A DNA stretch of 64,000 nt, from contig CBDASK010000003.1 in assembly GCA_965199495.1 (NCBI GenBank), positions 4,655,682-4,719,681 on the forward strand, in the 5' to 3' direction. Numbering within the stretch: the stretch's first letter is position 1; every line of letters starts with the position of its first letter. The notes beneath the pieces are model-generated. The model was not told the origin of the DNA, ran no database searches, and saw only the letters and a program-made list of their open reading frames with translations. Source of the stretch: Abditibacterium sp. (GTDB taxonomy: Bacteria; Armatimonadota; Abditibacteriia; Abditibacteriales; Abditibacteriaceae). The translations under genes and the position numbers were made by a program. This document shows positions 1,040 through 61,371 of this stretch, one piece after another.

Positions 1040-3214
1040 TTACTCGACTCTATCAAGTGAAACGTGTTCTTCAGCAATGAGCTTGCAAGCCCGCGCCGAA
1101 TCCGCCGATTGGGGCGCCGTGGCTGCATTAGCCCTGTGGGCCTGTGCGAGATGCGCTTCGATTCCTATCCTGAAAGTCGAAATCCAATTCACCAAAGGAA
1201 TCATCGCGTGCGGGATCATTGGCTTTTTGCGTCTACTTTCTCTCGCGGAATCTACGCGAGCCAGCAGTTTCTCAACGCTGTCGCGTTCGCGCGCCTGGGC
1301 GCTCAGTTGAATATCATCATAAATCAAAATCTTGCGTCCGTATTTAATCGTCGCGGTCAGTGGGCCACACGCACGCACTTGGTTCTGGCAACGCTCGAAG
1401 GTCGTTTCGCCGATTAACAAGCGCGTCTTGAACTGTTTGGTCTGGTTCTCGATGTGAGCAGCCACGTTGACGGCGTCGCCGATGACGGTGAAATCAGCGC
1501 GCTGCTGATCGCCCGTCGTGACGCCCAGTTCGCCGCACAACATCAGGCCAGTATTAACGCCGATTCCGATGTCGAAATCGGGCAAACCGCGCGCGCGCCA
1601 ATTCTCGTCCTGCCAACGCTCGCGCAACAGGGCGAACTCGTCCTGCATCTCCAAAGCCGCGCGCACGGCCCGCAACGCGTGATCGTCGCAGGGCATTGGC
1701 AAGCCGAAAACTCCCATCACCGCGTCGCCAACATATTTATCGAGCGTGCCGCCGTTACGCTTGACAACTTCGGTCATCGTCTGCAAATAGGCGTTGAGCA
1801 ACGCCAAAGTCTCGTTTGGCGTCAGCACATCGAAAAGCCGCGTGAAGCCGCGAATATCGGCGAACAACACGGTCGCCTCGCGCTCTTCTCCCATCGCCAG
1901 TTGATCGGGATGACGCAAAATCCACTCGGCGACCTGCGGGTCAACGTGGCGTTGCCAGTAAGATTTCACGCGATCTTTCTCGCGCTCTTCGGTCAGGGCG
2001 CGGTTGGCGAAAGTCATTAGTGCGGCCAAAACAAGCGTCAGAATCGGCGTCACCAAATGCACATCGAGTGCGTTCATAACGAAGAAGGCAACGTTTAAAG
2101 TGCCGAATACGAGCAGGCTCGCCACCAACGCGGGCGCGATACGACTCCAGCGCAAGCGCGCCACGATCCAACACGCCGCTCCCGCGCCCAACGCGATAAA
2201 AAACGCGTTGAGCCAGAACGGAACATGAGACACCGGACGCATTCCTTTCTCGATGGCAGCCAGAACGGTCGCGATGGCGTGCGCCTGAATTTCCATACCC
2301 GACATTTGCTCAGCGATTGGCGTGTTACGAAAATCATTCCCCACGGTTGTCACATCACCAATAATCACAATTTTATTTTTAAAAAATGGCCGGTAAAACG
2401 GATCGTCGGCCACGCCTTGTAATACATCTTCGTAGGGCACAGATGGAAAAAAACCGTGATTATCCACGCTTTGACCGTCTTTCCAAAAGGTAATGCGAAA
2501 CTCGTCGTTGATGTCGCTCGGAAGCGCCGAAAAATCGCGCATACCTGTGGCGATGGCGGCGCCCTGCAAACTTAGGGAGGGCAACAGGGAACCATCGGGC
2601 AATTTCTCGAAGGAACACATGGTGTCCACGCGGCCTTGTGTGAGGTTTTGGTTGATGTGCCCGACGCGCGCGTTCGCCGATTTCAAAGTTGCACTCGGCC
2701 CAATCAGACGCGGCGGAGTTTGATTGTCGTAACTTTCGTAGAGCGCGCCCCACGCGACCTTGCCGGACTCGCGCACGGCGCGCGCGAACTGTGGGTCTTG
2801 CGGCTTGGCGGCGTCGAACAAAAGATCGAAAACAATGGCGCGCGCACCGGCGCGCGTCAAGTCGCGCACCATGCGCGCGTGATTTAGGCGAGAAGCTGGC
2901 GGCCCAGCGATTCCACCCCCCTGGGGATTAAAGGTTTCATCCGACATCGGCACCAGCACGATCTGCTTTTTGGCCCAGGGCCGCACATCGCCAAAATAAA
3001 GCGAGTAGGCGCTGAACCGCTCGGCGAGAGCGACTTGCTCGGCCTTGACCAAATAAGGTTGCGAATCGAGGTAAAGCCCCAAAGCCGTCGCCGCGCCCCA
3101 GATAAAAAGCAGCGTAAACCGCGTCGTCTGTTGGGACAACGCGGTTTGGATGCGACGAATAATGGGCATGGGCGCGGGAGAGTTCATTCCTGCAATTGCA
3201 TAAGTTCTATGCAA
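1040..3214 (-). CDS. CHASE2-domain membrane adenylate/guanylate cyclase (class III); start may be 3187 or 3169
   Basis: CHASE2 motifs (GARAIVFDLLFD, NKIVIIG, GMEIQAHAIAT), three TM helices, cyclase motifs LFADIRGFT, DKYVGDAVMGVFG, IGIGVNTG, FTVIGDAVNVAA. Confidence 0.9.
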   Translation of the reverse strand: MHRTYAIAGMNSPAPMPIIRRIQTALSQQTTRFTLLFIWGAATALGLYLDSQPYLVKAEQVALAERFSAYSLYFGDVRPWAKKQIVLVPMSDETFNPQGGGIAGPPASRLNHARMVRDLTRAGARAIVFDLLFDAAKPQDPQFARAVRESGKVAWGALYESYDNQTPPRLIGPSATLKSANARVGHINQNLTQGRVDTMCSFEKLPDGSLLPSLSLQGAAIATGMRDFSALPSDINDEFRITFWKDGQSVDNHGFFPSVPYEDVLQGVADDPFYRPFFKNKIVIIGDVTTVGNDFRNTPIAEQMSGMEIQAHAIATVLAAIEKGMRPVSHVPFWLNAFFIALGAGAACWIVARLRWSRIAPALVASLLVFGTLNVAFFVMNALDVHLVTPILTLVLAALMTFANRALTEEREKDRVKSYWQRHVDPQVAEWILRHPDQLAMGEEREATVLFADIRGFTRLFDVLTPNETLALLNAYLQTMTEVVKRNGGTLDKYVGDAVMGVFGLPMPCDDHALRAVRAALEMQDEFALLRERWQDENWRARGLPDFDIGIGVNTGLMLCGELGVTTGDQQRADFTVIGDAVNVAAHIENQTKQFKTRLLIGETTFERCQNQVRACGPLTATIKYGRKILIYDDIQLSAQARERDSVEKLLARVDSARESRRKKPMIPHAMIPLVNWISTFRIGIEAHLAQAHRANAATAPQSADSARACKLIAEEHVSLDRVE

Positions 3215-3228: not shown

Positions 3229-6200
3229 TCAAAACCGATTTGTCAGACCGAATTCAATGTGACGCTCGCCCGTACGGTAATCTTGGAAAGCGAACTGGCG
3301 CGTATCGAAGATATTAGTGACGTTAAAGAACAATTCGTTGCGCGAGGAACCTTCGCGCGCCAACAGCAAATCAACGGCGTTGGTCGAGCCGAACGGAGCG
3401 CGCCCGCCGCCCACATCCAAACCGCCCAGAAACGAACCGGTGTGGCGCACCCGCAAGCCGACTTTATTGCCGGAATTCGACAGATATTGCAGCGACAGAT
3501 CGCCCAGCAAACGCGGCTCGTAGGGCGCGTGGCTGCTGTAACCATCGGCGCTCACCGAACGCGAAACCAGACCGCCGTTTAAGAACCAGTTGCGGCCCAG
3601 ACGGTTTTCGGCGCGCGCGCCAAACCCCGATCCGCGCCAACCATCCAACTTCAGCGAGGCCGCGACGGGCGAAGGCAAACCGTTACCAAAACCCTGAAAA
3701 TCAGGCCCGCCAACAACAACATTATCCGCCGAACTCGCGAAGGCAAATAAGCGCACAAAACCACTTTTGCCGACGTAACGCTCGACATCAAGTTGCGCCA
3801 GTTGCATCGTTTGTGGCACGCCGTAAGGCACGGCGCCGCGTTGCGTAATCAGCAGAGTTTCATTGGGCGCGAATGCGCTCGTCGTCGCGTCCGTAACGCG
3901 CTTGTTGAACGAAAACCGCAGCGCCGTGCGCGCATCGGCCTGATAGTTTGCCAGAAAACTCGGCAAAACGTGCGTCTGATTATCAACAATTCCGGGCGCC
4001 AGTTGCGTCTGATCCAAAATCGCCAAGCCGCCATTTTGCGAGCGCTGGTTGCGCTGCACGCGCAGTTGGCCGATCAAAGAAAATTTCTGGCCAAAACGCC
4101 CGGCGTATTGGCCGTAAGCCAGATTGGTGACGTTGGTTTCATCGCCAAAAAGTCGGCCCTGCTGACCAGCCACGGACAACGGCAAGTCGCCGCTCAAATC
4201 GAATTTGGTGCGCGCGCGCGCCAATCCAAAGGTGAAAGTCCCCGCCTGTGTGGTGCCGCGATTGACCTGCAAATCGTAGCGCAATTCGGGCAGCAAACCG
4301 TTCGATTCGACATCTTGGCGCGCGATATTTAAATCGGAACCGGCGACGCCGAACGAGTTACCCAACGGATCGGTCACGGTGTTTTTCTGGCGCGCGCCGC
4401 GCACACCGACCCACAAATTGCTGTTGGCGCTCAGGCGCTGACGCGCGGCGATGCCGAGGTCGCCTCCACTATAGCGCGAGCGGTCGTCGGTGTCGGGCCG
4501 CGAGTCAGGGCCGCGCAAACCATTTTCGGTCGAGGCAGCACGCAAAACCACGCCGATGTTGGTGCGCGGCGATGGTGCGTAGGTCAAAAACTGCCCGGTC
4601 GAATAGCCTTTGCTGTCGTCGTTGGTGCGCGTTCCGGCGCCCGCCTCGCGGTTGACTAGACTCAGCGAGTTCAACTTGCCGTCGTCCGCCGTGATGCGAT
4701 GCGTCAGCCCGACCGTATTGGCGCCTTGCGTGCCGCCCGACGGCGTGAGTTCGGTGTGAATGCCACCGCGCAAAAGTTGCTGTGAAATCGCGGGGTCTTG
4801 AATAAACGCCTGCGTCAGGCTGGCCGACGACGGGCGCAAATCGCTGTTACCGTTGCGCAGTGCCAACTGCGCCATCGCCAGAGCGTTGGTCGGATCGTAG
4901 ATTAACGCGGTGCGAAATTCGCGTTCCGATTGCGCTTCGAGGCGCCCGAAATCCAAAGCCAAACCTAAAATCGCGTGATACTGCCCGACTTCGGGCGCCA
5001 ATCGAACCGCCTGCTGACCAGCTTCGATGGCCGCGCTGAGTTTGTTGGAATAGGTCAAAGTGCGCGCCAGTTCAGCCTGATAAAGCGCTGAGTTGGGCGC
5101 CTTTTCAATCGCCTGACGCTGGCGCGTTTCGGCGCCGCGATAATCGCCCTGCTCATACAAAACCGCGCCCAGCGCGCCCAGCGCCGCGTCCGAATTGGGG
5201 TTGCGCTCCAAAATCACGTTGACCGCCTGACGCGCTTTTTCCGGCTCGCCCATCAAGTTGTAAACGCGCGCCAATGCCGAAGCTGCGGGCAGAAAATCGG
5301 GCGACTGTTCCAGAGTGCGCTGCAAGTTGCGGAGGGCGTGGCTGTAGTCGCGGCGCCCGGCATTAGCCACGCCCAATAGATAATACGCTTGCGGCAATTT
5401 CGGATCGAGCGCGACCGCTTGCGCCGCCTCGCGCGCGGCACTATCGGCGTCGCCGCGCAGCAACAGCGCCTGTCCCAATGCCACACGCGCCGCCGCAGAA
5501 TCGGGATCGAGCGCGACCGCGCGCCGCGCGTTGCGCTGCGAAGCGACGCCATCGCCCGCGAAAAAGTTGGCCAGCGCCAGGTTACCGTGCGCAAGAGCCG
5601 AATACGGTTGCAGCCTCGTCGCAGTTTCCCCTTCGCGCACGGCGCCGGCGACATCGTTTTCGTCCAGCAACGCCAACGCCAGCCACGCGTGCGCGGCATA
5701 GCTGACTTCGCTGTCGCCACTCGCCACAGCTTTCAAAGCTTCAACGCCCAACGCGCGTTTGGCGGGCTGGCGTAACAACGCCACGCCGAGCGCCAAGCGT
5801 GCTTCGGCGCCTTGATCGCGGCCCAGCGCCGTGCTTCTGAGCGGAGCCGACAGCGCCCTTTCGGCGGCGATTTGCGCCGCGTCGGGTTGGTCGCGTTGCA
5901 GTTGAAGCCACGCCACGCCCGTCATCGCCGGAGCATAAGAATCGGTGTTACCGCTACCACCATCTTCAGCGACTTGCACCAATCGCGCGCCAGTTTTCGA
6001 GGCCGCCTTGAATGCTTCGTTGGCTTCGTCGAGCCGATCTAATTCCAGTAAAACATAGCCCAAACGCGTCAACGTTTGCGGGTCGCGCGCCAACTGCTCG
6101 GCGGTTTGGTACTGAACCAACGCTTCTGGATAACGATGCGCATCGAACAAAGCATCGCCCAAATCGCGCAAAACGGCGGCGTTATTTGGCGCGGCCTGTG

Positions 6201-6888
6201 CGCGAGTTTGGCGGCGCGCGAGTTCGGGCGCGACGACTTTGGGATCGAGCGAAATCCAAAACTTTTCGCGCGAGACGGCGGCGCGATCCAGCGAGGCCGT
6301 CCATTCGGTGATTAAGCCACCGTTTTGCACGGTGACCGGCGCCGTCGGCGCCAGACCGGGCCGCGCGATACTACGCTGCGAAGAATTCACGATAACCGAG
6401 CCGAACTTGTTGAAAAATTCAACTTCGCCTTCAACCACGACCAAAGCGGTCGTGCCGTCACCCGCAGCCACGTCGAGGTGAATCTCCGTCCCGCGCACGC
6501 CCAGGGAGACGGTGCGCGTTTCGATGGCGTTGCCGGGCCGCAAGCGCGCCCACACGCGCCCACTGATTGCGCGAAATAAACTGCGCTTGCCATCTCCCAG
6601 CGGTTTGGGTTCTGTGACCTGAATCGAAGAATTCTCGCCCAGACGCACTTGCGCGCCATCGCTCCACAACAACGTCAACTTGCCATTGGCGCCAGTTCCC
6701 ACAACGTTTCCGATGTAAAGTGGAGTACGACGCGCCAAGTTCGCCCTGGCCGCGCCAGTTTTGGTGCTGACCCAGGTCGTGCCGGTCGCAGTTCGCACTG
6801 TGCCAACGGGAGCCGCAGCCCACGCCGCGCCGCTCGACATCGTGAGAACAACCAAAGCAGTCCAATTGGGAGCAAGTAATTTTTTCAT
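3229..6888 (-). CDS. FecR-domain / TPR-repeat / outer-membrane beta-barrel protein (NsrA-like)
   Basis: Signal peptide (AWAAA), FecR-like motifs (DGAQVRLGENSSI, LGVRGT, VVEGEV), many TPR repeats, C-terminal amphipathic beta-strands ending in F. Confidence 0.8.
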   Translation of the reverse strand: MKKLLAPNWTALVVLTMSSGAAWAAAPVGTVRTATGTTWVSTKTGAARANLARRTPLYIGNVVGTGANGKLTLLWSDGAQVRLGENSSIQVTEPKPLGDGKRSLFRAISGRVWARLRPGNAIETRTVSLGVRGTEIHLDVAAGDGTTALVVVEGEVEFFNKFGSVIVNSSQRSIARPGLAPTAPVTVQNGGLITEWTASLDRAAVSREKFWISLDPKVVAPELARRQTRAQAAPNNAAVLRDLGDALFDAHRYPEALVQYQTAEQLARDPQTLTRLGYVLLELDRLDEANEAFKAASKTGARLVQVAEDGGSGNTDSYAPAMTGVAWLQLQRDQPDAAQIAAERALSAPLRSTALGRDQGAEARLALGVALLRQPAKRALGVEALKAVASGDSEVSYAAHAWLALALLDENDVAGAVREGETATRLQPYSALAHGNLALANFFAGDGVASQRNARRAVALDPDSAAARVALGQALLLRGDADSAAREAAQAVALDPKLPQAYYLLGVANAGRRDYSHALRNLQRTLEQSPDFLPAASALARVYNLMGEPEKARQAVNVILERNPNSDAALGALGAVLYEQGDYRGAETRQRQAIEKAPNSALYQAELARTLTYSNKLSAAIEAGQQAVRLAPEVGQYHAILGLALDFGRLEAQSEREFRTALIYDPTNALAMAQLALRNGNSDLRPSSASLTQAFIQDPAISQQLLRGGIHTELTPSGGTQGANTVGLTHRITADDGKLNSLSLVNREAGAGTRTNDDSKGYSTGQFLTYAPSPRTNIGVVLRAASTENGLRGPDSRPDTDDRSRYSGGDLGIAARQRLSANSNLWVGVRGARQKNTVTDPLGNSFGVAGSDLNIARQDVESNGLLPELRYDLQVNRGTTQAGTFTFGLARARTKFDLSGDLPLSVAGQQGRLFGDETNVTNLAYGQYAGRFGQKFSLIGQLRVQRNQRSQNGGLAILDQTQLAPGIVDNQTHVLPSFLANYQADARTALRFSFNKRVTDATTSAFAPNETLLITQRGAVPYGVPQTMQLAQLDVERYVGKSGFVRLFAFASSADNVVVGGPDFQGFGNGLPSPVAASLKLDGWRGSGFGARAENRLGRNWFLNGGLVSRSVSADGYSSHAPYEPRLLGDLSLQYLSNSGNKVGLRVRHTGSFLGGLDVGGGRAPFGSTNAVDLLLAREGSSRNELFFNVTNIFDTRQFAFQDYRTGERHIEFGLTNRF

Positions 6889-8017: not shown

Positions 8018-9532
8018 TTACGACCCTAGCACAACTTGGTCTGAGGTTGCGGGTTGGTGGTTAAAGCTGGTGAACGAAGATGAAGCCGGAGCAGTAGGCA
8101 ACGCACCGGGAACCCAATAAGGAAAAACCTGACTATATATGCCAGTGCCTGAATACACGATGCGGTAATATTTGCCCGGAGCCGGGTTAACGATGTTGAC
8201 CGAGGCAAATTTGGTGATATACAAGATGTATGTCATATGCCAGAACGAGCTTTGGTTCGGCGCGTAGTTGTTGCCATATTCGATATTCAGCGTGCCATCG
8301 AGGTAAGCGTTGCCGTTGACGCGCAGTTGGTCGTATTGAAGACCTGCAACTGGCCCCCAAATTTGCATATTCATCAGGCCATTGGCGGTTTGGGTGAAGT
8401 TGCCGTTGATGATGATCAGGCCGGGCGAGTGGCCGACGTTGATGGCGCCGCCGTCAATGACTACATCGCCGTCGATGGTGCCGCTACCGTCCAACACGCC
8501 ACCCTTAATTTGCAGGCTGCCAGCGTCGGATTTTTTCGACGAACTCACGATTTCCAGCGTGCCGTCATCAATTGTTGTGGTGCCGCTTTCCTGCGTCACC
8601 GTATTGCCGTCGACCGGCGCGATTTTCAAGTGGCCTTTGCCCACATGCAGATGGCCTTTGTTTGTCACTGCCATTTGAATCTCGGCGTCGCCTTCCATCA
8701 CTTCAAGCACGCCGTCGTTGTCCAACGTTTTCGATTTGCCAGAACAACCCAAAACGCTGCCGTTTTTGAGCGACATTTTCGCGCCTTTCTGATTTGAAAA
8801 ATCTTTTTTGGCCAGAGTGCGCACGCCATCGAAAATTAAGGTGTCTGCGTTAGAAATAGTACCGCCTTCAAAAGCGCGGCTATCGCTCCCCGTGTTGGTC
8901 AAGATAACCGTGCCCTTTTCATTGGTGAGCGAATTGAACTGGACGGGAGCATCCGTCGCTGCGCCAGCCACGCTCAACACAAGGTCGCCGCCATTATTGT
9001 TCACATCGTCGAACTCGGCATCAACCGACGCGCTAATGTTGATGTTCAACTTGCCTTTGTTATTGACTTTACCGAATTTGCCGTGCTTCTTTTTGGTTTT
9101 GGCTGCCGATGACAAGCCATTGGACAGAGATCTCACAGCATCGAGCGCGGGCGCGTTCACGTTGAGGGTAGCCACCGCGCCAGCGGGAATGTTAAGTTCG
9201 CCTTCGCCTTCGACAAGGCCATCGGAACTTGTCCAGCCCGTGACGTTGAGCGCGCCGTCGTTCAGCAACGTGGCCTCGCTGCCCAAGCGCAGGTTTTTGA
9301 GCGTTACGTTGTCGGGCACTGCCACCGCCGCCGTGCCGCCGATGAACACAGTATCCGCCGCGCCGGGCACGCCCCGTGGCGCCCAGTTCTTCGAGTTCGT
9401 CCACACACCATCGGCGGCGTTACCCGTCCAGGTGTAGTCCGCTGCGTTGGCCGCATAAGGCGCGCCCAACATCAGACCAGCCGCCATAGCGCCCAGCCAA
9501 AGCCCCTGCCAGTTTTGATTCGTTTTTTTCAT
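8018..9532 (-). CDS. Secreted beta-helix (autotransporter-passenger-like) protein
   Basis: Signal peptide ANA-ADYTWTG, WTNSKNW motif, Gly/Asn-rich beta repeats, 'GHSPGLIIINGNFTQ...YDQLRVNG.A.LDGTL'; no C-terminal barrel. Confidence 0.7.
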   Translation of the reverse strand: MKKTNQNWQGLWLGAMAAGLMLGAPYAANAADYTWTGNAADGVWTNSKNWAPRGVPGAADTVFIGGTAAVAVPDNVTLKNLRLGSEATLLNDGALNVTGWTSSDGLVEGEGELNIPAGAVATLNVNAPALDAVRSLSNGLSSAAKTKKKHGKFGKVNNKGKLNINISASVDAEFDDVNNNGGDLVLSVAGAATDAPVQFNSLTNEKGTVILTNTGSDSRAFEGGTISNADTLIFDGVRTLAKKDFSNQKGAKMSLKNGSVLGCSGKSKTLDNDGVLEVMEGDAEIQMAVTNKGHLHVGKGHLKIAPVDGNTVTQESGTTTIDDGTLEIVSSSKKSDAGSLQIKGGVLDGSGTIDGDVVIDGGAINVGHSPGLIIINGNFTQTANGLMNMQIWGPVAGLQYDQLRVNGNAYLDGTLNIEYGNNYAPNQSSFWHMTYILYITKFASVNIVNPAPGKYYRIVYSGTGIYSQVFPYWVPGALPTAPASSSFTSFNHQPATSDQVVLGS

Positions 9533-11454: not shown

Positions 11455-12474
11455 TTATGGCGTTGGAACCGATTCGATGGTTTTCAAAATTCGCGAAGCG
11501 ATCTGGTAGGGGTCGCCTTCCGAGTTGGGGCGGCGATCTTCCAAATAGCCTTTGTAATCGTTTTCGATGAACGAATGCGGAATGCGAATCGAGGCGCCGC
11601 GATCAGCCACGCCGTAGGAGAAGGCGTCAATCGGCGCCGTTTCGTGCAAGCCGGTCAGGCGCAGATGGTTGTTCGGGCCATAAACCGCGATGTGTTCCAT
11701 CTTGTTGCTGTCAAAGGCTTCCATCAAATTCTCGAAATACTCTTTGCCGCCGACTTCGCGCATATATTCGGTCGAGAAGTTGGCGTGCATACCCGAACCG
11801 TTCCAGTCGCCCTTAATCGGTTTGCACTCGATGACGACATCAACGTGATAACGCTCGCACAAACGGTAGAGAATATAGCGCGCCATCCACAATTCGTCGG
11901 CGGCTTTCTTGGAGCCTTTGCCGAAGATTTGGTATTCCCACTGGCCTTTGGCGACTTCGGCGTTGATGCCCTCGTGATTGATGCCCGCTTCCAAGCACAA
12001 ATCGAGGTGCGCTTCGACGATTTCGCGGGCGACTTCGCCAACGCTACGGTAGCCGATGCCGGTGTAATAGGTACCCTGCGGTTCGGGATAACCCTCGCGC
12101 GGAAAGCCCAACGGACGGCCATCCTTATACAAGAAATATTCTTGCTCGAAACCGAACCACGCTCCGGGATCGTCGTGGATGGTCGCGCGCGAGTTGGAAG
12201 GATGCGGCGTGACTTTGTCGGGCATCATCACTTCGCACATCACCAAGATGCCGTTTTTGCGCGTTGGGTCGGGATACATCGCGACTGGCTTGAGAGCGCA
12301 ATCCGATGATTTGCCCTCGGCCTGCTGCGTCGAGGAACCGTCGAAACCCCAGAAGGGCAACTGTTCGAGCGTGGGAAATTCATCGAACTCTTTGATCAAA
12401 GTTTTTCCGCGCATGTTGGGCACGGGCTGATAGCCGTCGAGCCAGATGTATTCGAGTTTGTATTTGGTAGCCAT
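11455..12474 (-). CDS. glnII: Glutamine synthetase type II
   Basis: LEYIWLDG, WGFDGSST, GFEQEY, GINAEVAKGQWEYQ, DWNGSGMH, RLTGLHET, GYLEDRRP; 339 aa, typical GSII length. Confidence 0.95.
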   Translation of the reverse strand: MATKYKLEYIWLDGYQPVPNMRGKTLIKEFDEFPTLEQLPFWGFDGSSTQQAEGKSSDCALKPVAMYPDPTRKNGILVMCEVMMPDKVTPHPSNSRATIHDDPGAWFGFEQEYFLYKDGRPLGFPREGYPEPQGTYYTGIGYRSVGEVAREIVEAHLDLCLEAGINHEGINAEVAKGQWEYQIFGKGSKKAADELWMARYILYRLCERYHVDVVIECKPIKGDWNGSGMHANFSTEYMREVGGKEYFENLMEAFDSNKMEHIAVYGPNNHLRLTGLHETAPIDAFSYGVADRGASIRIPHSFIENDYKGYLEDRRPNSEGDPYQIASRILKTIESVPTP

Positions 12475-44011: not shown

Positions 44012-44283
44012 CGAGAACTCCTCGACCACAACGCTTTGTGCGGTCACGTTTCACAGGATAAGGAGCCATCGTCACAGCAGCGTCACCGGTGGAGGAAAGC
44101 GAAAAATTTAATTTTCGCGGTTTTGCCTGTTCCAAAGGGCGTGCTCCATTTCGCCATCTGTTTTGGCGCGCTGTTGTTGGGGTTTGGCGCGGAGTTAAAC
44201 TAAAACGCTACATCCAACGCCAGCCACGCTCTCAGTTCTTGCGGTTCTGTGCGAATTCCGGCGCGTCCGTTTTCCCAACTTTC

Positions 44284-56017: not shown

Positions 56018-57691
56018 ATGCCAGTTGCTTCTTCGCCTTCGCAAGTTTCGCCTGTCGCCGCGCGTGCCTCACGTTCGGGGCAGGCGATGTTGCTTTTGTC
56101 GGCGCTTTACTTTTTGTCGCGCTTTACCGGTTTGCTACAACGCACGATTATCGGCGCGTTGTTGCCCGAAGCCGCGACCGATGCTTATTCCATTGCGTTT
56201 AATTTGCCCGATATTTTGAATTATCTGGTGGCGGGCGGCGCGATTTCGCTGACCTTTATCCCGACTTTCACGCGATTGTGGGACAAAGGCAAAGAGGCCG
56301 AAGCGTGGCGCTTCTTCTCGACTTTAATCAGCGTAATGGGCGCGGTTTTGCTGGCGGCGACCGCGATAATGATGGTCTTTACGCCGACATTTTTGGCCAT
56401 CAGCAATCCCGGATTGCGCGAAATTAATCCGGCCACCGGGTTGGTGTTGCCCGCGAAACAGGAAACATTTGAGTTAGCCGTTCAAATGACGCGCGTCATT
56501 TTGCCCGCGCAAATCTTCTTTTATCTGGGTGGTTTAATGCTGGGCGTTTTGAACACGTTTAAGCGGTTCGGCGCGACGGGTTGGACGGGGCCGATCAACA
56601 ACTTCATCGCGATTGTGGTGGCGGTCGGCTTGTGGTTTTGGCTCCACAATCCGATTGTTTTCGCGTGGAGCATTTTATTGGGCGCGTTCGTCGGCAACTT
56701 TTTGTTGCCCTTTTTGGCGTTGCGAGGCGGGCCGCGTTCGCATCGTCCGCGTTTTCGTGTGCGCTTTGATGTCGGCAATCCGTCGGTGCGCCGCTTTTTC
56801 ATTCTGACTTTGCCGATCATGCTGGGCGTTTCGCTGCCGGTCGTGGATTGGATGGTGGTTTCTTATTTCGCGTCGAGCCTGCCCGAAGGCACGCTGACGC
56901 ATTTGCAATACGGCAATCGTTTGATGATCGCGGCACAGGGCATCGTAGGCCAGTCGGTCGCCGTGGCTTCGTTTCCGTTTCTGGCTTCGATGGTCGCGCT
57001 GGGCAACTTCAATGAGTTCTCCGAATTTCTGCGCGTCAATTTGCGGCGTTTGTCGTTCGTGACTTTGCCGCTTTCGGTTCTGTTAGTTTTGGGAGCCACG
57101 CCGCTTTGTTCGCTCATTTTCGGTTGGGGCGCTTATAACGATCCAGCGAAAATCGGCGAAACGGCGCTGTCATTCGCGTTTTTCACCATTGGACTTTTCG
57201 CGTGGGCGGCGCAGGGCATCGTGTCGCGCGGTTTTTACGCGCTGGGCGATACGCGCACGCCAACGATCATCGGTTCGGCGCTGACGATATTTTTCTTTAT
57301 TCCTCTCTGCGTGCTTTCGATGAAATTAAATATGGGCGCGCTGGGCTTATCGCTGGCGACGACGATTGGCGCGGCGGCTTATTTTGGCGTGGCGCTGGTG
57401 TTTCTCGAAGCCAAGTTAAAACAGCGCAAATATCAAGCGCCCATCGGCTTAGATTTGTTGGCGGGCACGTTGCTTCGCACCATGTCGGCGTGCGCCCTGA
57501 TGGGCGTGGCTGGTGTTATGGCGTTGATTTTGGGGCGAGAAATTATTCCCGCCACCAAAGCGGGCGATTTACTTTTGTTGTTAGGGGTGTGGATTGTAGC
57601 GGGCTTCGTGTTTTGCGGCGCGTCGTCGCAGTTCGAGATTCCCGAATGGGCATGGTTGAGCGCCAAAGTGCGCCGTCGCAAACGCCGGTAG
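56018..57691 (+). CDS. murJ: Lipid II flippase MurJ (MviN)
   Basis: LSRFTGL.., DAY.IAFNLP, GGA...FIP, SRGFYALGDTRTP. Confidence 0.9.
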   Translation: MPVASSPSQVSPVAARASRSGQAMLLLSALYFLSRFTGLLQRTIIGALLPEAATDAYSIAFNLPDILNYLVAGGAISLTFIPTFTRLWDKGKEAEAWRFFSTLISVMGAVLLAATAIMMVFTPTFLAISNPGLREINPATGLVLPAKQETFELAVQMTRVILPAQIFFYLGGLMLGVLNTFKRFGATGWTGPINNFIAIVVAVGLWFWLHNPIVFAWSILLGAFVGNFLLPFLALRGGPRSHRPRFRVRFDVGNPSVRRFFILTLPIMLGVSLPVVDWMVVSYFASSLPEGTLTHLQYGNRLMIAAQGIVGQSVAVASFPFLASMVALGNFNEFSEFLRVNLRRLSFVTLPLSVLLVLGATPLCSLIFGWGAYNDPAKIGETALSFAFFTIGLFAWAAQGIVSRGFYALGDTRTPTIIGSALTIFFFIPLCVLSMKLNMGALGLSLATTIGAAAYFGVALVFLEAKLKQRKYQAPIGLDLLAGTLLRTMSACALMGVAGVMALILGREIIPATKAGDLLLLLGVWIVAGFVFCGASSQFEIPEWAWLSAKVRRRKRR

Positions 57692-58014: not shown

Positions 58015-58019
58015 GCATT

Positions 58020-58785: not shown

Positions 58786-61371
58786 TTAGGCGCTAACCAG
58801 TTCCGGCGCGCGGCTCAACGCTTCGTCAATTTTACCCGCGTCTTTGCCGCCCGCCTGCGCGAAATCGGGCCGTCCGCCGCCGCCGCCGCCCGTCATCGTC
58901 GCCAACTGTTTCACAATATTGCCCGCGTGCGCGCCAGCAGCCACGGCGGCTTTGCTGGCTTTGACGGCCCAGATCACTTTGCCGTCCGATTCGGCGGCTA
59001 AAACCACTACGCCATCCAATTTATCGGCCAAAGTGTCGGCCAATTCGCGCAAAGAATTTTTGTCCAAACCTTGCGGCGCCCGGCTCGCCACGAATTTGAT
59101 GCCGTTGCTTTCGCTCGCGCCCGACAGAATATCGTCGGTCGCGCCGCCCGCCAATTTGCGTTGCGATGCCGCCAATTCGCGTTCGAGTTCGCGCACGCGC
59201 GCGCTGAGTTTCTCGGCGGCGGGCAACGCGTTTTCGGAGCGCGCGCCCAAAACGCCCGCCACATCGCGCAACGTCTGCGCTTGCTGACGGTCGTAATCCA
59301 AAGCGCGAAGTCCAGTCAACGCTTCGATGCGCCGCACATTGGCGCTCACGCCGGTTTCGCCCAAAATGCGAAAAGTGCCCGCCGCCGATGTCGTCGGCAG
59401 GTGAGTGCCGCCGCACAGTTCGAGTGAGAAGTCGCCCATTTTCACGGTGCGCACGACATCGCCATATTTCTCGCCAAACAGCGCCATCGCGCCCATCGCT
59501 TTGGCTTCGGCCAAAGTTTTCTCGGCGATTTCAACCGGCGTTGATTTGAGAATTTCTTCGCTAACGGTGTTTTCGACGAGGGTAATTTCGGTGGGCTTCA
59601 TCGGCTCGAAATGCACGAAATCGAACCGCAAGCGGTCGGCCTCGACGAGCGAACCGCGTTGTTGAACGTGCGCGCCCAAATGTTCGCGCAAAGCCGCGTG
59701 CAACAAGTGCGTCGCCGAATGCGCGCGCTCGATGGCGCGGCGACGATTCACATCAACCGTCGCCGTCACGGATTCGCCTTCGTTTAAATCGCCTTCGATT
59801 TCGACCGAGTGAACCCATGTCTTGCCTTCTTTTTTGGTATCGAGAACGCGCGCGATGCCATTTTCGCCGACGATTTCGCCGGTATCGCCGACTTGGCCAC
59901 CGCTTTCGGCGTAAAATGGCGAACGATCCAACACGATTTTTCCGTCGCGAATCGCGACAATCTGCGCTTCACATTGCGTTTGCGAATAGCCAACGAACTC
60001 GGTTTTCAAATCGCCAAACTCGGAAACCGCGTATTCGCCGACGGCGCTACCCGAAGTTTTCGAGTGCGCCTGCGCAGCCACACGGTAGCCTTCGTCATCA
60101 ATCGAAATGCCTTTCTGTCCGGCAATATCCTGCGTCAGTTCGCGCGGGAAGCCGTAGGTTTCATACAAGCGAAAGACTTCCTCGCCCGCGATTTGGGTTT
60201 CGCCGCGACTTTGGAGCGACGCAACGATGTCGTCCAAACGCCCGATGCCCGCTTCAATCGTGCTTTCAAAACGCTCTTCCTCGCGCTCGATGAGGCCGGT
60301 GATAATGCTCTGGCGCTCGACTAATTCGGGATAAACGTCGCCGTAACTTTGCACGACGGTGGGAATCAGGCGATACAAAAATGGCTTGTCCAAACCTAAA
60401 TTGCGCCCGTTCAAAAACGCGCGGCGAATAAAGCGACGCAGCATATAATCGCGGCCCGCCGCGCCGGGCGTGACACCATCGGCGGCCAGAAAAATCGCCG
60501 CGCGCACATGATCGGCGATGATGCGCGCCGGGCGCGTCGTCGGGTCGGCGGGATTCAAAGCGGGCGTGGATAAATCGAATGGTAAATCACCGGGTTGTTT
60601 GGCGGCGAAAATCGCGTTAATAATCGGCGCGAACAAGTCGGTTTGGTGAATGGTGTCCACGCCCTGCAAAATCGCCGCGACGCGTTCGAGTCCCATGCCC
60701 GTATCAATGCCGGGCGCCGGCAGTGGCAATAATTCGCCGTTTTCGGTCTGGTTGTATTGCTGAAAAACCAGATTCCAGATTTCGCCGTAACGGTCGCCGT
60801 CGCCGCCGGGCCGGTCGAGTTCGGCGTCACCGGTGTCGTATTTGGCGCCTCGATCATAGAAAATTTCCGAATCCGGCCCGCACGGCCCAGATTTGCCGAC
60901 TGGCCCCCACCAATTGTCTTTTTTGCCGAACCGATAAATCCGTTCGTCGCTTAAACCGACATCGTTGCGCCAGATTTTGGGCGCGTCTTCGTCTTCGTGA
61001 TAAACCGAAACCCATAAAACATCGGGATCAATATTCAACTCTTTGATCAAAAATTCCCAGCCCCACACGATGGCGTCGCGCTTGAAATAATCGCCGAAAG
61101 AGAAGTTGCCGAGCATCTCGAAAAACGAAGCGTGGCGCCACGTCACACCGACCTGCTCGATGTCGTCAGCGCGGCAACACTTCTGGCAACTCGCCAGACG
61201 CGTTGCCGGTGGCTGCTCCTCGCCCTTGAAGTAAGGCACGAGCGGTTGCATTCCGGCAGAAGTCAAAAGCGTGGTTGGGTCGGTGGGAATCAGGCTGGAA
61301 GAGGGAACGATGAGCGAATTTTTGGATTGCCAAAATTCGAGAAATTTGGAGCGAAGGTCGTGGCCGGTCAT
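58786..61371 (-). CDS. alaS: Alanine--tRNA ligase
   Basis: DPTTLLTSAGMQ, FFEMLGNFSFGDYFK, IDTGMGLER, HSATHLLH, ELCGGTH, GGGGGRPDFAQAGG. Confidence 0.97.
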   Translation of the reverse strand: MTGHDLRSKFLEFWQSKNSLIVPSSSLIPTDPTTLLTSAGMQPLVPYFKGEEQPPATRLASCQKCCRADDIEQVGVTWRHASFFEMLGNFSFGDYFKRDAIVWGWEFLIKELNIDPDVLWVSVYHEDEDAPKIWRNDVGLSDERIYRFGKKDNWWGPVGKSGPCGPDSEIFYDRGAKYDTGDAELDRPGGDGDRYGEIWNLVFQQYNQTENGELLPLPAPGIDTGMGLERVAAILQGVDTIHQTDLFAPIINAIFAAKQPGDLPFDLSTPALNPADPTTRPARIIADHVRAAIFLAADGVTPGAAGRDYMLRRFIRRAFLNGRNLGLDKPFLYRLIPTVVQSYGDVYPELVERQSIITGLIEREEERFESTIEAGIGRLDDIVASLQSRGETQIAGEEVFRLYETYGFPRELTQDIAGQKGISIDDEGYRVAAQAHSKTSGSAVGEYAVSEFGDLKTEFVGYSQTQCEAQIVAIRDGKIVLDRSPFYAESGGQVGDTGEIVGENGIARVLDTKKEGKTWVHSVEIEGDLNEGESVTATVDVNRRRAIERAHSATHLLHAALREHLGAHVQQRGSLVEADRLRFDFVHFEPMKPTEITLVENTVSEEILKSTPVEIAEKTLAEAKAMGAMALFGEKYGDVVRTVKMGDFSLELCGGTHLPTTSAAGTFRILGETGVSANVRRIEALTGLRALDYDRQQAQTLRDVAGVLGARSENALPAAEKLSARVRELERELAASQRKLAGGATDDILSGASESNGIKFVASRAPQGLDKNSLRELADTLADKLDGVVVLAAESDGKVIWAVKASKAAVAAGAHAGNIVKQLATMTGGGGGGRPDFAQAGGKDAGKIDEALSRAPELVSA

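What the first reader, a model, noticed from the sequence alone, without database searches (positions are those of the whole stretch)
1118..58945. Highly iterated non-palindromic octamer CGTGGCTG/CAGCCACG: candidate DNA-uptake-like or methylase-linked genomic signature
Seen: a hand count gives about 51 exact copies. CGTGGCTG on + (23): 1118, 3528, 5337, 10388, 13490, 15463, 22578, 22760, 24510, 25534, 29612, 30323, 30792, 35301, 37514, 39554, 41662, 43931, 45065, 45657, 50109, 52205, 57505. CAGCCACG on + (28): 1459, 4167, 5680, 6465, 8965, 11604, 14677, 15478, 19759, 23348, 24995, 27096, 28284, 28490, 29560, 31415, 32066, 34811, 35316, 39541, 41397, 42667, 44221, 46489, 49973, 52493, 55164, 58938. 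Many one-mismatch copies also occur, and the motif often extends to CGTGGCTGC. A zero-order model at an eyeballed 55-60% GC predicts about 3 copies. Copies lie almost entirely in genes and are read in all six frames (V-A, W-L, R-G-C, A-T, S-H, Q-P-R), often using GCT/GCA Ala codons in genes that otherwise appear to favour GCG/GCC, so protein sequence does not explain them. I found none in the AT-richer islets (25889-26383, 33809-34759, 37625-38903, 58020-58676) or the intein. Known: Neisseria DUS, Pasteurellaceae USS and cyanobacterial HIP1 show this dispersed, roughly one-per-kb, frame-independent pattern, while Chi and KOPS are strand-biased; this motif matches none of them. Inference: an undescribed uptake sequence, or the target of an asymmetric methyltransferase/repair or chromosome-binding system.
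Basis: partly seen in the sequence, partly recalled or inferred. Interest (0 to 1): 0.88.

Follow-up and report, generated by a model that had tools for sequence, protein, structure and literature searches.

The report
Clade-specific hyper-iterated DNA word CGTGGCTG
One small branch of the soil bacterial genus Abditibacterium writes the eight-letter DNA word CGTGGCTG into its genes about once every 1.5 kb regardless of protein meaning, and copies pointing the same way avoid each other within about 1 kb, which suggests that some unidentified DNA-handling machine reads the word one strand at a time.

Summary
All 51 listed copies are present, against about 2 expected. Genome-wide there are 3091 copies, 13x an order-3 Markov model and 10x a synonymous-codon shuffle. 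In each of the six frames, 25-51% of peptide-compatible places carry the word.

- **Distribution:** only 3 of 13 species of the genus are enriched, and these three are each other's closest relatives. Sampled genomes of one other genus of the family carry unrelated words, including a palindrome.
- **Spacing:** same-orientation copies are depleted to 0.1-0.5 of expectation up to about 1 kb. Opposite-orientation copies are not, and none of 60 control words behaves this way. This points to strand-specific reading over about 1 kb.
- **Replichore test:** it is uninformative, because this genome has no replication asymmetry.
- **Reader:** not identified. Competence genes occur in carriers and non-carriers alike. 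None of the 9 (of 16) methyltransferases tested is specific to the carriers. AddAB is missing from the carriers only.

My best guess, at 0.35, is a one-strand-marked repair signal like the one proposed for cyanobacterial HIP words. A strand-specific uptake tag and a Chi-like signal remain open. This scan has noted analogous iterated words on other DNA, but not this one.

The parts
1118..1125 (+). CGTGGCTG copy
1459..1466 (-). CGTGGCTG copy
3528..3535 (+). CGTGGCTG copy
4167..4174 (-). CGTGGCTG copy
5337..5344 (+). CGTGGCTG copy
5680..5687 (-). CGTGGCTG copy; conserved in G004
6465..6472 (-). CGTGGCTG copy; conserved in G004
8965..8972 (-). CGTGGCTG copy
10388..10395 (+). CGTGGCTG copy in glnA; conserved in G011
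11604..11611 (-). CGTGGCTG copy; conserved in G011
13490..13497 (+). CGTGGCTG copy; conserved in G011
14677..14684 (-). CGTGGCTG copy
15463..15470 (+). CGTGGCTG copy, left arm of an inverted pair (15463-15485) inside an ABC transporter gene
15478..15485 (-). CGTGGCTG copy, right arm of the inverted pair; conserved in G011
19759..19766 (-). CGTGGCTG copy; conserved in G011
22578..22585 (+). CGTGGCTG copy; conserved in G011
22760..22767 (+). CGTGGCTG copy; not in G011
23348..23355 (-). CGTGGCTG copy; conserved in G011
24510..24517 (+). CGTGGCTG copy; conserved in G011
24995..25002 (-). CGTGGCTG copy; conserved in G011
25534..25541 (+). CGTGGCTG copy; conserved in G011
27096..27103 (-). CGTGGCTG copy
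28284..28291 (-). CGTGGCTG copy; conserved in G011
28490..28497 (-). CGTGGCTG copy
29560..29567 (-). CGTGGCTG copy
29612..29619 (+). CGTGGCTG copy
30323..30330 (+). CGTGGCTG copy; conserved in G011
30792..30799 (+). CGTGGCTG copy in argS; conserved in G011
31415..31422 (-). CGTGGCTG copy in argS; conserved in G011
32066..32073 (-). CGTGGCTG copy in argS; conserved in G011
34811..34818 (-). CGTGGCTG copy
35301..35308 (+). CGTGGCTG copy, left arm of an inverted pair (35301-35323); conserved in G011
35316..35323 (-). CGTGGCTG copy, right arm of the inverted pair
37514..37521 (+). CGTGGCTG copy in amt
39541..39548 (-). CGTGGCTG copy, left arm of a divergent inverted pair (39541-39561); conserved in G011
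39554..39561 (+). CGTGGCTG copy, right arm of the pair; conserved in G011
41397..41404 (-). CGTGGCTG copy
41662..41669 (+). CGTGGCTG copy; conserved in G011
42667..42674 (-). CGTGGCTG copy
43931..43938 (+). CGTGGCTG copy
44221..44228 (-). CGTGGCTG copy
45065..45072 (+). CGTGGCTG copy
45657..45664 (+). CGTGGCTG copy
46489..46496 (-). CGTGGCTG copy
49973..49980 (-). CGTGGCTG copy
50109..50116 (+). CGTGGCTG copy
52205..52212 (+). CGTGGCTG copy
52493..52500 (-). CGTGGCTG copy
55164..55171 (-). CGTGGCTG copy in dnaX (outside the intein endonuclease part)
57505..57512 (+). CGTGGCTG copy in murJ
58938..58945 (-). CGTGGCTG copy in alaS

Best explanation
CGTGGCTG (fuller form CG-N-CGTGGCTG-C-T) is a clade-specific, hyper-iterated genomic word. 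It is a non-palindromic counterpart of the highly iterated palindromes (HIPs) of cyanobacteria.

**Shown:**
- The word is written into genes at the DNA level, overriding codon preference.
- It is kept at orthologous places between the two closest species.
- It is depleted in low-GC, foreign-looking DNA and at background level on the two small extra contigs.
- A copy is redundant only with copies of the same orientation lying within about 1 kb.

**Inferred:**
- The word is read on one strand by a process that reaches about 1 kb along the DNA.
- The most likely process is a strand mark for post-replicative repair. An asymmetric site would be modified on one strand only: the CGTGGCTG strand has no adenine, while its complement has two. 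The site would then be used as in Elhai's methyl-directed mismatch-repair ratchet.
- In that scheme each orientation serves one of the two daughter duplexes. New copies stop accumulating once a same-orientation copy lies within repair range.

The enzyme(s) that write and read the mark are not identified.
For: **Size and DNA-level nature**
- 3091 copies against 237 expected (order-3 Markov).
- 2888 in genes against 277 +/- 19 after synonymous shuffling, with all six frames enriched.
- 25-51% of peptide-compatible places are used, against 1-11% expected from codon usage.

**Strand-specific redundancy**
- Same-orientation pairs, observed/expected by distance: 0.10 (0-50 nt), 0.14 (50-100), 0.29 (100-300), 0.30 (300-400), 0.40 (400-500), 0.54 (500-750), 0.78 (750-1000), 0.81 (1000-1250), about 1 from 1.5 kb.
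- Convergent and divergent opposite-orientation pairs stay at 0.77-1.29, and at 1.5-2.0 below 50 nt.
- Runs test: 1941 runs against 1542 expected, z = 14.4.
- Among 60 other frequent non-palindromic 8-mers, only the shifted form of the word itself (GCAGCCAC) shows repulsion; the rest cluster instead.
- The effect holds between genes as well as within them. It is also seen in G011, with 86 same- against 154 opposite-orientation neighbours.
- It does not depend on long shared flanks. Surviving close pairs share a run of 9.06 nt against 9.48 nt for distant pairs.
- The floor of 0.10 is close to 1/13, the inverse of the enrichment. Next to a same-orientation copy, density falls to the unenriched level (inference).

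**Agreement with Elhai 2015 (PMC4390886, abstract and section 3.4 read)**
- That model predicts saturation near one site per kb, because a further site within repair range changes nothing.
- It also predicts that one-off variants deviate at the outer positions. Here outer variants are 2.1-4.5x enriched and inner ones mostly depleted, 0.3-0.9.

**Word turnover of the kind seen with methyltransferase specificities**
- 3 of 13 congeners carry this word.
- In 100-kb samples of another genus of the family, two species carry the palindrome TCGAGTACTCGA. A third carries AGTACGGTCGA, mostly as 24-bp palindromes.
- Those words also lie in genes in all frames and also show short-range exclusion.

**Conservation**
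- 122 of 174 G000 sites (70%) are kept in G011, against 38% of all 8-mer windows, 44% of one-off variants, and a mean of 44% for 1808 frequent words.

**Enzymes that could fit**
- MutS is present in 13 of 13 congeners.
- G000 has an orphan one-polypeptide adenine methyltransferase. It has a Type ISP specificity domain but no nuclease or helicase, sits among housekeeping genes, and itself carries three copies of the word. Its G011 match is 95% identical over the 230 residues available before the contig ends.
- Enzymes of that family methylate one strand of short asymmetric sites (PMC3553950, passages read).
Against: - **No carrier-specific methyltransferase found.** Nine of 16 candidates were tested, mostly against 5 genomes. 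None has a close orthologue in all three carriers while being absent from non-carriers.
- **The ISP-like enzyme does not cover G004.** It is 95% identical in G011 but only 37-41% in G004, and a non-carrier (G001) has a 60% homologue.
- **No nicking enzyme is identified,** and methylation cannot be measured with these tools.
- **Elhai's model is itself unproven.** Xu et al. 2018 (PMC5861425, abstract only) argue for selection and a nucleoid role for HIP1.
- **The mutation-rate test is inconsistent.** A repair signal predicts more divergence far from sites. Third-codon-position identity to G011 is flat (0.74-0.77) out to 1.6 kb and drops to 0.72 and 0.68 beyond. The G004 comparison shows no such drop, and word-poor regions are atypical anyway.
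- **Other strand-specific processes predict the same spacing.** These include a strand-specific step in transformation and a Chi-like signal.
- **The three carriers are one clade.** Every gene-content contrast therefore rests on a single evolutionary event.
Confidence: 0.35

Rival explanations
1. The word is a DNA uptake sequence, like DUS or USS. A surface or periplasmic receptor prefers DNA carrying it, and transformation then drives the word through the genome. To fit the spacing, the word would have to act on the single transforming strand, so that each orientation serves one strand.
For: - Density of about 1 per 1.5 kb, equal on both strands, mostly in genes and in frames coding common peptides.
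- Depleted in low-GC bins (0.13-0.33 against 0.64-0.69 per kb). The two small extra contigs hold 8 copies in 89 kb.
- About 3% of copies form close inverted pairs, some of them in intergenic hairpins.
- ComEC and DprA are found in 13 of 13 congeners, a ComEA-type HHH_3 protein in 12 of 13, and 5-9 secretin matches per genome.
- G000 has about 12 prepilin-like genes by an N-terminal pattern.
- In G004 a REPIN-like element carries the word. A selfish element exploiting an uptake bias would be expected to do this.
- A strand-specific transformation step would give same-orientation redundancy (my derivation). Strand preference of DUS in single-strand transformation of Neisseria is recalled, not checked.
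Against: - For Haemophilus, uptake is reported to be independent of the tag's orientation, with one tag bound per fragment (PMC1939737, passages read). That predicts redundancy with neighbours of both orientations, which is not seen.
- A directional-uptake variant predicts a difference between convergent and divergent pairs. None is seen.
- The word is limited to 3 of 13 congeners, and a sister genus has unrelated words including a 12-bp palindrome. Known DUS dialects differ by only a few bases across a family (PMC3630211, seen in the search listing only).
- The competence genes are equally present in non-carriers.
Confidence: 0.25
2. The word is a Chi-like signal. A helicase-nuclease tracking in from a DNA end recognises it from one side and switches from degradation to repair. 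Copies in each orientation protect against ends approaching from one side. Foreign DNA, lacking the word, is degraded.
For: - Orientation-specific redundancy with independence between the two orientations is what a tracking enzyme predicts (my derivation).
- The word is asymmetric, G-rich, and depleted in low-GC bins and on the small contigs.
- The carriers differ from their congeners in end-processing genes.
  - The AddB-type nuclease subunit is found in 10 of 10 non-carriers and 0 of 3 carriers.
  - A 1421-aa PD-(D/E)XK nuclease plus SF1 helicase fusion is found in the genus only in the carriers, with G004 at 86% identity.
- The missing replichore bias is not informative in this genome.
Against: - RecC is found in 0 of 13 congeners, and AddAB is absent precisely where the word is abundant.
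- The fusion protein does not track iterated words outside the genus. G016, G038 and G039 have 40-45% homologues but no word in 60-92 kb samples. G020 and G022 have a word but no homologue.
- In G011 the fusion gene is a truncated, frameshifted remnant, yet the word is still dense (0.56 per kb) and conserved.
- No Chi recognition is known for this type of enzyme, and known Chi sites are far less enriched (recalled).
- AddB was also not found in 12 genomes of five other genera of the family, some with words and some without.
Confidence: 0.15
3. The word is a binding site for a nucleoid or chromosome-organising protein, or a by-product of some other sequence-specific mutational bias, with no strand-tracking process involved.
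For: - Xu et al. 2018 propose a nucleoid role for HIP1 (PMC5861425, abstract only).
- Overall spacing is somewhat more even than random: CV 0.93, and 77 gaps over 5 kb against 117 expected.
- Close inverted pairs are 1.5-2x enriched below 50 nt, as for a dimer site.
Against: - A duplex-binding protein should make neighbours of either orientation redundant or cooperative. Only same-orientation copies repel.
- Differences between G000 and G011 at lost sites fall at all eight positions, which a single-mismatch-specific repair bias would not give.
- No candidate protein was identified.
Confidence: 0.1
4. The copies are remnants or targets of a small mobile element (REP, REPIN or MITE).
For: In a 120-kb sample of G004, 52 of 86 copies lie in a conserved 19-mer, GTAGGACGTGGCTGGTGTC. 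It mostly occurs as inverted doublets, 29 of the 52 outside long ORFs, and sometimes in tandem clusters.
Against: - In G000 and G011 the information ends within about 13 bases, with no flanking hairpin covariation across 3083 sites.
- 2888 of 3083 copies lie inside genes, in all frames.
- G000's own REP-like hairpin is a different sequence (157 copies).
- The G004 19-mer occurs twice in G000 as its 16-base core, and 0 times in 445 kb of G011.
Confidence: 0.03

Closest known systems
Highly iterated palindromes of cyanobacteria (HIP1 GCGATCGC and alternate HIPs; Elhai 2015 PMC4390886; Xu et al. 2018 PMC5861425)
   Same: - An octamer at about one copy per kb, inside genes in all frames.
- Conserved between related genomes.
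- One-off variants concentrated at the outer positions.
- The word is replaced by unrelated words in some lineages.
- A proposed link to methyltransferases and to saturation at repair range.
   Different: - Not a palindrome, and found in another phylum.
- Confined to a sub-genus clade.
- No cognate methyltransferase identified.
- The orientation-specific 1-kb exclusion can only be seen with an asymmetric word. I did not find it described in the parts of these papers that I read.
DNA uptake sequences: DUS of Neisseriaceae and USS of Pasteurellaceae (PMC3630211, PMC1939737)
   Same: - Non-palindromic 8-12-mer at about 1 per kb, equal on both strands.
- Many copies in genes, some as inverted pairs.
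- Depleted in foreign DNA.
- The competence gene set is present.
   Different: - Uptake has not been tested.
- Redundancy is orientation-specific, whereas Haemophilus uptake is reported to be orientation-independent.
- Restricted to 3 of 13 congeners.
- Sister lineages have unrelated words rather than dialects.
- Copies are less dense between genes (0.36 per kb) than within them (0.69 per kb).
Chi sites of RecBCD/AddAB
   Same: - An asymmetric, G-rich octamer over-represented in native DNA.
- The spacing pattern implies orientation-dependent reading.
   Different: - No RecC, and no AddB in the carriers.
- No replichore bias, though the genome has no replication asymmetry at all.
- The enrichment is far stronger than I recall for any Chi.
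REP/REPIN elements
   Same: In G004 most sampled copies sit in a GTAG-led hairpin repeat arranged as inverted doublets.
   Different: In G000 and G011 the word is a bare motif of about 13 bases inside genes, with no hairpin. RAYT transposases were not searched for.

Membership tests
DNA uptake sequence (DUS/USS) | Hyper-abundant short word, about 1 per kb, equal on both strands | tested here: met
   3091 copies in 4.81 Mb, 1530/1561 by strand.
DNA uptake sequence (DUS/USS) | DNA carrying the word is preferentially taken up or transforms better | not testable with these tools
DNA uptake sequence (DUS/USS) | Competence machinery present | tested here: met
   ComEC 13/13, DprA 13/13, HHH_3 (ComEA-type) 12/13, secretins in 13/13 congeners. 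These are equally present in non-carriers, so the result does not discriminate.
DNA uptake sequence (DUS/USS) | Acts independently of orientation, one tag per fragment (Haemophilus; PMC1939737) | tested here: inconclusive
   Only same-orientation neighbours are redundant. This is not what orientation-independent uptake predicts, but a strand-specific later step could give it.
DNA uptake sequence (DUS/USS) | Shared across a family as closely similar dialects | tested here: not met
   Found in 3 of 13 congeners. Sampled genomes of another genus carry unrelated words, and four non-carrier congeners carry none.
Highly iterated palindrome (HIP) | Palindromic word | tested here: not met
   CGTGGCTG is not its own reverse complement. 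Only 2 sites form the shared-centre palindrome at spacing 9.
Highly iterated palindrome (HIP) | Hyper-abundance inside genes in all frames, with sites conserved between genomes | tested here: met
   70% of sites are kept in G011 against a 38-44% background. There is no excess towards G004: 15/46 = 33% against 28%.
Highly iterated palindrome (HIP) | Cognate (orphan) methyltransferase present when the word is abundant | tested here: inconclusive
   Nine of 16 candidate methyltransferases were tested, and none is specific to all three carriers. An orphan ISP-like adenine methyltransferase is shared by G000 and G011 only (the G011 match covers 230 residues). Seven candidates are untested, and specificities are unknown.
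Highly iterated palindrome (HIP) | One-off variants deviate mostly at the outer positions | tested here: met
   Variants at positions 0 and 7 have O/E 2.1-4.5. Variants at positions 1-6 have O/E 0.3-1.7, most of them below 1.
Chi | Cognate RecBCD or AddAB enzyme | tested here: not met
   RecC family 0/13. AddB 0/3 carriers against 10/10 non-carrier congeners.
Chi | Co-orientation with replication | tested here: inconclusive
   The co-oriented fraction is 0.484, against 0.483 +/- 0.116 for 40 composition-matched controls. The genome has no GC skew or gene-strand bias from which replichores could be defined.
KOPS / architecture-imparting sequences | Strong skew switching at dif | tested here: not met
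   Every 200-kb bin is within +/-0.13, and cumulative skew is at most 70 sites.
REP/REPIN | Intergenic imperfect palindrome, often as inverted doublets | tested here: not met
   In G000, 2888 of 3083 copies are genic and there is no flanking covariation. The feature is met only by 52 of the 86 sampled copies in G004.

The most novel reading that the evidence does not exclude
Abditibacteriaceae run a family-wide system in which a lineage-specific word marks native DNA for a repair machine with about 1 kb of reach. The word is set by a fast-changing DNA-modification specificity. In this clade the word is asymmetric and marked on one strand only, so the two orientations serve the two daughter duplexes. 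That would be the first sequence-level evidence for how bacteria without MutH tell old from new strands, and it would explain HIP-type words in general.
Probability: 0.25. Interest if true: 0.9.

Novelty: new variant of a known kind. Interest (0 to 1): 0.7.

Why it matters
Hyper-iterated words (HIP1, DUS, USS) have been known for some thirty years. The function of HIP1 is still open, and uptake tags are known from only two families.

This case adds a phylum in which closely related species with and without a word sit side by side, and in which sister genera carry different words.

It also adds a new, easily computed observable. Because the word is asymmetric, comparing the spacing of same- and opposite-orientation copies shows that it is read strand-specifically over about 1 kb. 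Applying the same statistic to Neisseria, Haemophilus, E. coli Chi and other asymmetric words would sort them into mechanistic classes.

If the repair-signal reading holds, it bears on strand discrimination in mismatch repair outside the gamma-proteobacteria.

Tried and rejected
- **Chance, composition or codon artefact:** rejected. The O/E of 1.15 at Markov order 6 is not a refutation, because that model is fitted on the word's own 7-mers.
- **Assembly artefact:** unlikely. Three assemblies of very different contiguity (3, 8 and 360 contigs) show the enrichment.
- **Hairpin around single copies:** there is no complementarity between the flanks across 3083 sites; all excesses are within +/-4%.
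- **Replichore bias:** not usable.
- **Exclusion caused by deletion between direct repeats:**
  - Close same-orientation pairs that survive share only slightly shorter identity than distant pairs: 9.06 against 9.48 nt, with 17% against 24% sharing 11 nt or more.
  - Pairs sharing only 8-10 nt are as depleted as the rest.
  - None of the other frequent 8-mers tested shows repulsion.
  - Repeat length is therefore at most a minor contributor.
- **Exclusion as a per-gene effect:** the same/opposite ratios are 0.29-0.63 within a gene and 0.35-0.70 between genes.
- **Directional-uptake model:** it predicts depletion of convergent pairs but not divergent ones. Both are near 1.
- **The nuclease-helicase fusion as common reader:** it fails outside the genus.
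- **Carrier-only methyltransferase:** none found among the 9 tested. Seven candidates are untested: G000:C3 genes near 1183765, 4314457, 103917, 3446463, 4635698, 4273367 and 4272516.
- **Recent exchange between carriers:** no 300-bp window reaches 97% identity.
- **Divergence against distance from the word:** inconsistent between G011 and G004.
- **Public sequencing runs:** three runs hold the stretch or a part of it, all only as contigs. One is probably the source sample, and the other two hold 5-7% of the sampled words. None was laid on the sequence, and nothing is claimed from them.
- **Literature:** searches found no paper on this word or on iterated words in Abditibacterium. The 2,476 papers that hold the octamer string were not all inspected; the 25 listed are unrelated (primers and the like).

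Full report
**1. Observation**

Dinucleotide-preserving shuffles give 1.99 +/- 1.53, with none of 100 above 7.

The window is the last 64 kb of a 4.72-Mb contig in a 4.81-Mb, three-contig assembly of 55.7% G+C.

Genome-wide counts and nulls:
- There are 3091 copies, 1530/1561 by strand.
- Markov expectations are 220 (order 0), 164 (order 1), 237 (order 3) and 436 (order 4).
- The word is the most deviant of all 8-mers under orders 3 and 5.
- Orders 5 and 6 give 1428 and 2692, but only because they are trained on the word's own 6- and 7-mers.

**2. A DNA-level signal, not a protein one**

I called 3756 genes crudely, as non-overlapping longest ORFs of at least 100 codons.
- Of the 3083 copies on the main contig, 2888 lie inside these genes.
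- Ten shuffles of synonymous codons within each gene give 277 +/- 19. All six frame/strand classes are enriched, 4.0- to 23.5-fold.
- Counting every place where the encoded peptide would allow the word, 25-51% carry it, against 1-11% expected from codon usage. This happens although it needs the rare Ala codons GCT (11%) and GCA (6.8%).

The motif itself:
- It extends to C(-3) G(-2) N CGTGGCTG C T.
- Its inner six bases are strict. One-off variants at the two outer positions are 2.1-4.5x enriched, while inner variants are mostly depleted.
- No complementarity links the flanks, so a single copy is not part of a hairpin.

**3. Where the word is and is not**

Within the genome:
- Density is 0.69 per kb in genes and 0.36 per kb between them.
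- It falls to 0.13-0.33 per kb in 5-kb bins below 52% G+C.
- A run of large word-free gaps lies within C3:1.119-1.225 Mb, a stretch that holds a Type I restriction system.
- The two small contigs hold 8 copies in 89 kb.

Among relatives:
- By the titles of the nearest public records, the organism is an uncultured Abditibacterium.
- Among 41 relatives, only G000, G004 (3503 copies) and G011 (2676) are enriched.
- The other 10 species of the genus and 28 more distant genomes carry about as many copies as of the reversed control word.
- The three carriers are each other's closest relatives. DNA identity to G000 is 86-89% for G011 and mostly 80-84% for G004 (range 68-88% per segment). It is 65-87% (mostly 69-79%) per segment for three non-carriers. 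AlaRS identity is 93%, 82% and about 72%.

**4. Turnover**

In 237 kb aligned between G000 and G011:
- 122 of 174 G000 copies (70%) are intact in G011, and 122 of 154 the other way.
- For comparison, 38% of all 8-mer windows are intact, 44% of one-off variants, and a mean of 44% for 1808 frequent words.

Against G004, with 74 kb aligned:
- Only 15 of 46 G000 copies are shared (33%, background 28%).
- But 15 of 22 G004 copies are shared.
- Genic density in G004 is about half that of G000.

The simplest reading (inference) is that enrichment began before the three species split and has continued, or been better maintained, in the G000/G011 line.

Differences at lost sites fall on all eight positions, mostly third codon positions. 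This argues against a repair bias acting on one particular mismatch.

**5. G004 carries the word in a second form**

In a 120-kb sample, 52 of 86 copies sit in a conserved 19-mer, GTAGGACGTGGCTGGTGTC.
- It occurs mostly as inverted doublets, 29 of the 52 outside long ORFs, sometimes two doublets in tandem. That is a REPIN-like element.
- The other 34 copies look like those of G000.

G000 has an unrelated GTAG-led hairpin repeat (157 copies), which G011 lacks. A mobile repeat has thus picked up the word in one species. The word in G000 and G011 is not such an element.

**6. The new finding: copies of the same orientation avoid each other**

Neighbour orientation:
- Neighbouring copies are in opposite orientation 1940 times and in the same orientation 1142 times.
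- The runs test gives 1941 runs against 1542 expected, z = 14.4.
- In the window itself, my count is 35 opposite against 15 same.

Pair correlation over all pairs, same-orientation observed/expected:

| Distance (nt) | Observed/expected |
|---|---|
| 0-50 | 0.10 |
| 50-100 | 0.14 |
| 100-300 | 0.29 |
| 300-400 | 0.30 |
| 400-500 | 0.40 |
| 500-750 | 0.54 |
| 750-1000 | 0.78 |
| 1000-1250 | 0.81 |
| from 1500 | about 1 |

- Convergent and divergent opposite-orientation pairs stay between 0.77 and 1.29 at all distances.
- The exception is a 1.5- to 2-fold excess below 50 nt. These are the close inverted pairs: 99 inverted against 6 direct within 60 nt.

Controls:
- Among 60 other frequent non-palindromic 8-mers, only the shifted form of the word itself (GCAGCCAC) repels; the rest cluster mildly.
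- The effect is as strong between genes as within them.
- It recurs in G011, which is not independent because most sites are shared.
- Long shared flanks do not explain it, so deletion between direct repeats is at most a minor factor.

The floor of 0.10 is close to the inverse of the 13-fold enrichment. Next to a same-orientation copy, the force that enriches the word vanishes (inference). Whatever reads the word therefore reads it in an orientation-dependent way, with a reach of roughly 1 kb.

**7. What the spacing rules in and out**

- **Orientation-independent uptake.** A tag of which one per fragment suffices, as reported for Haemophilus (PMC1939737, passages), should make neighbours of both orientations redundant. 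This is not seen.
- **Directional uptake.** An uptake that pulls in DNA on one side of the tag predicts depletion of convergent but not divergent pairs. This is not seen either.
- **Three kinds of process do fit:**
  - a mark placed on one strand and used by a repair system of kb range;
  - a Chi-like signal for an end-tracking nuclease;
  - a transformation step that acts on the single incoming strand.
The chromosome has practically no GC skew. Gene-strand use is 48.6-48.9% everywhere. The word's co-orientation (0.484) equals that of 40 composition-matched words, 0.483 +/- 0.116.

**8. The family context favours a modification-linked word**

Four non-carrier congeners have no hyper-iterated 8-mer in 100-kb samples; the best z is 7.6-21.8, and the highest comes from coding triplet repeats.

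In another genus of the same family, all three sampled genomes have one:
- G020 and G022 carry the palindrome TCGAGTACTCGA, about 95 sites per 100 kb, with O/E 52-85 for its core.
- G017 carries AGTACGGTCGA, mostly as 24-bp palindromic doublets.
- These words also lie in long ORFs in all frame classes and also show short-range exclusion. G020 has 4 pairs under 300 nt against 27 expected. G017 has 4 pairs between 100 and 600 nt against 45 expected.

Three genomes of a further genus and two more distant ones have none.

Unrelated words, some of them built of nested short palindromes, swapping between close lineages recall the alternate HIPs of cyanobacteria. Elhai links those to resident methyltransferases (PMC4390886, abstract). 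His model of a methyl-directed mismatch-repair ratchet predicts two things seen here: saturation at about one site per kb, because a further site within repair range changes nothing, and one-off variants at the outer positions (section 3.4 read).

For an asymmetric word marked on one strand, the model needs each orientation separately, one for each daughter duplex. That would give exactly the orientation-specific redundancy observed (my derivation).

The CGTGGCTG strand contains no adenine and its complement contains two. A one-strand adenine mark is therefore possible, as made by Type ISP, IIL or III enzymes (PMC3553950, passages).

**9.

*Competence genes* do not discriminate. ComEC and DprA are in 13 of 13 congeners, a ComEA-type protein in 12 of 13, and several secretins in all.

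*Methyltransferases.* G000 has 16 candidate DNA methyltransferase genes. I tested nine, most against G004, G011 and three non-carriers only.
- None has a close orthologue in all three carriers while being absent from non-carriers.
- Two are shared only by G000 and G011:
  - an orphan adenine methyltransferase with a Type ISP specificity domain but no nuclease or helicase. It sits among housekeeping genes and carries three copies of the word. It is 95% identical over the 230 residues available in G011, 37-41% in G004 and 60% in non-carrier G001;
  - a methyltransferase that, with an MjaI-like nuclease, directly follows mutS. It is 84% identical in G011. Homologues of about 50% elsewhere are not next to mutS.
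- If G004 has lost the system, as its lower genic density would allow, either could be involved. This is speculation.

*End-processing genes* differ sharply.
- The RecC family is found in 0 of 13 congeners.
- An AddA/AddB-type operon is present in non-carrier G009, and its AddB is matched in 10 of 10 non-carrier congeners. It is matched in none of the three carriers.
- A 1421-aa PD-(D/E)XK plus SF1 helicase fusion occurs, within the genus, only in the carriers.
- That fusion is a truncated remnant in G011. Its 40-45% homologues elsewhere do not go with iterated words.
- AddB was also not found in 12 genomes of five other genera, with and without words.
- Because the carriers are a single clade, each contrast counts as one event.

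**10. Verdict**

It is a new, non-palindromic member of the class of hyper-iterated genomic words, in a phylum where none was reported in the library I could search.

My odds:

| Reading | Odds |
|---|---|
| One-strand repair mark (HIP-like, Elhai-type) | 0.35 |
| Uptake tag with a strand-specific step | 0.25 |
| Chi-like signal | 0.15 |
| Other binding site or mutational bias | 0.10 |
| Mobile-element origin | 0.03 |
| Something not considered | the rest |

The orientation-specific 1-kb exclusion is the most useful result.

This scan has noted comparable iterated words on other DNA. Those notes gave me pointers to the HIP and DUS papers but no evidence about this word.

Noticed in passing
G000:C3 whole genome; G009:C1:1896065-1902544 (L174:4065-10544): An AddA/AddB-type helicase-nuclease operon is present in non-carrier G009. 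Its AddB is matched in all 10 non-carrier Abditibacterium species but not in the 3 word-carrying species, nor in 12 genomes of five other genera of the family. The RecC family was found in none of the 13 congeners.
   Followed up: partly
G000:C3:4111365-4115630 (L173:5365-9630, - strand), next to a topoisomerase IB gene: A 1421-aa fusion of an N-terminal PD-(D/E)XK nuclease and a C-terminal SF1 helicase. Within the genus it occurs only in the three carriers: intact in G004 (86%), and in G011 an N-terminally truncated, frameshifted remnant. Homologues of 40-45% occur sporadically in distant relatives.
   Followed up: partly
G017:C14:100001-200000 (L181-L185); G020:C1:100001-200000 (L201-L205); G022 (L206-L210): Another genus of the family has its own hyper-iterated words at about 1 per kb. 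These are the palindrome TCGAGTACTCGA (G020, G022) and AGTACGGTCGA, mostly as 24-bp palindromic doublets (G017). They lie inside genes in all frames and show short-range exclusion.
   Followed up: partly
G004:C3:800001-920000 (L011-L016): A REPIN-like family. The 19-mer GTAGGACGTGGCTGGTGTC, which contains the octamer, occurs as inverted doublets with AT-rich spacers, often between genes and sometimes as two doublets in tandem.
   Followed up: partly
G000:C3, e.g. 83312, 161661, 175755 (157 copies): G000 has its own REP-like hairpin, TTTTAGACACGACAAGTCGGTGTCTCTACG, intergenic and GTAG-led on the other strand. It is nearly absent from G011 (1 copy in 445 kb) and absent from the G004 sample.
   Followed up: partly
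G000:C3:2187698-2192359: mutS is followed directly on the same strand by an N6/N4 DNA methyltransferase and an MjaI-family restriction nuclease, with a 5-base gap and an 8-base overlap between the ORFs. G011 has mutS and the methyltransferase in the same order. Homologues of about 50% in other congeners lie elsewhere.
   Followed up: partly
G000:C3:3611624-3614356: An orphan 910-aa adenine methyltransferase with a Type ISP specificity domain but without the nuclease and helicase parts of Type ISP enzymes. It sits among housekeeping genes.
   Followed up: partly
window 52763-55918: dnaX (clamp-loader tau/gamma) is interrupted by an intein with a LAGLIDADG homing-endonuclease domain.
   Followed up: no
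window 17089-17219: A 131-bp AT-rich palindromic (MITE-like) element between two genes, with many copies in both orientations in G011.
   Followed up: no
window 12628-12664: A tandem duplication of a 14-base unit (CAGCCTTTATCCTT) in an intergenic stretch. Similar short stretches recur in G004, G006 and G011.
   Followed up: no
G000:C3 whole chromosome: The chromosome shows practically no GC skew (cumulative range about 6000 in 4.7 Mb) and no gene-strand bias, so origin and terminus cannot be placed from composition.
   Followed up: partly
G000:C3:1119396-1224543: A stretch of about 105 kb that is very poor in the word, with several gaps of 11-18 kb and partly low G+C. It holds a Type I restriction system and two very large genes (1981 and 1433 aa), and looks like acquired DNA.
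   Followed up: no
window 25889-26383: The word-free, 44% G+C islet encodes a SUKH-3 immunity-type protein.
   Followed up: no
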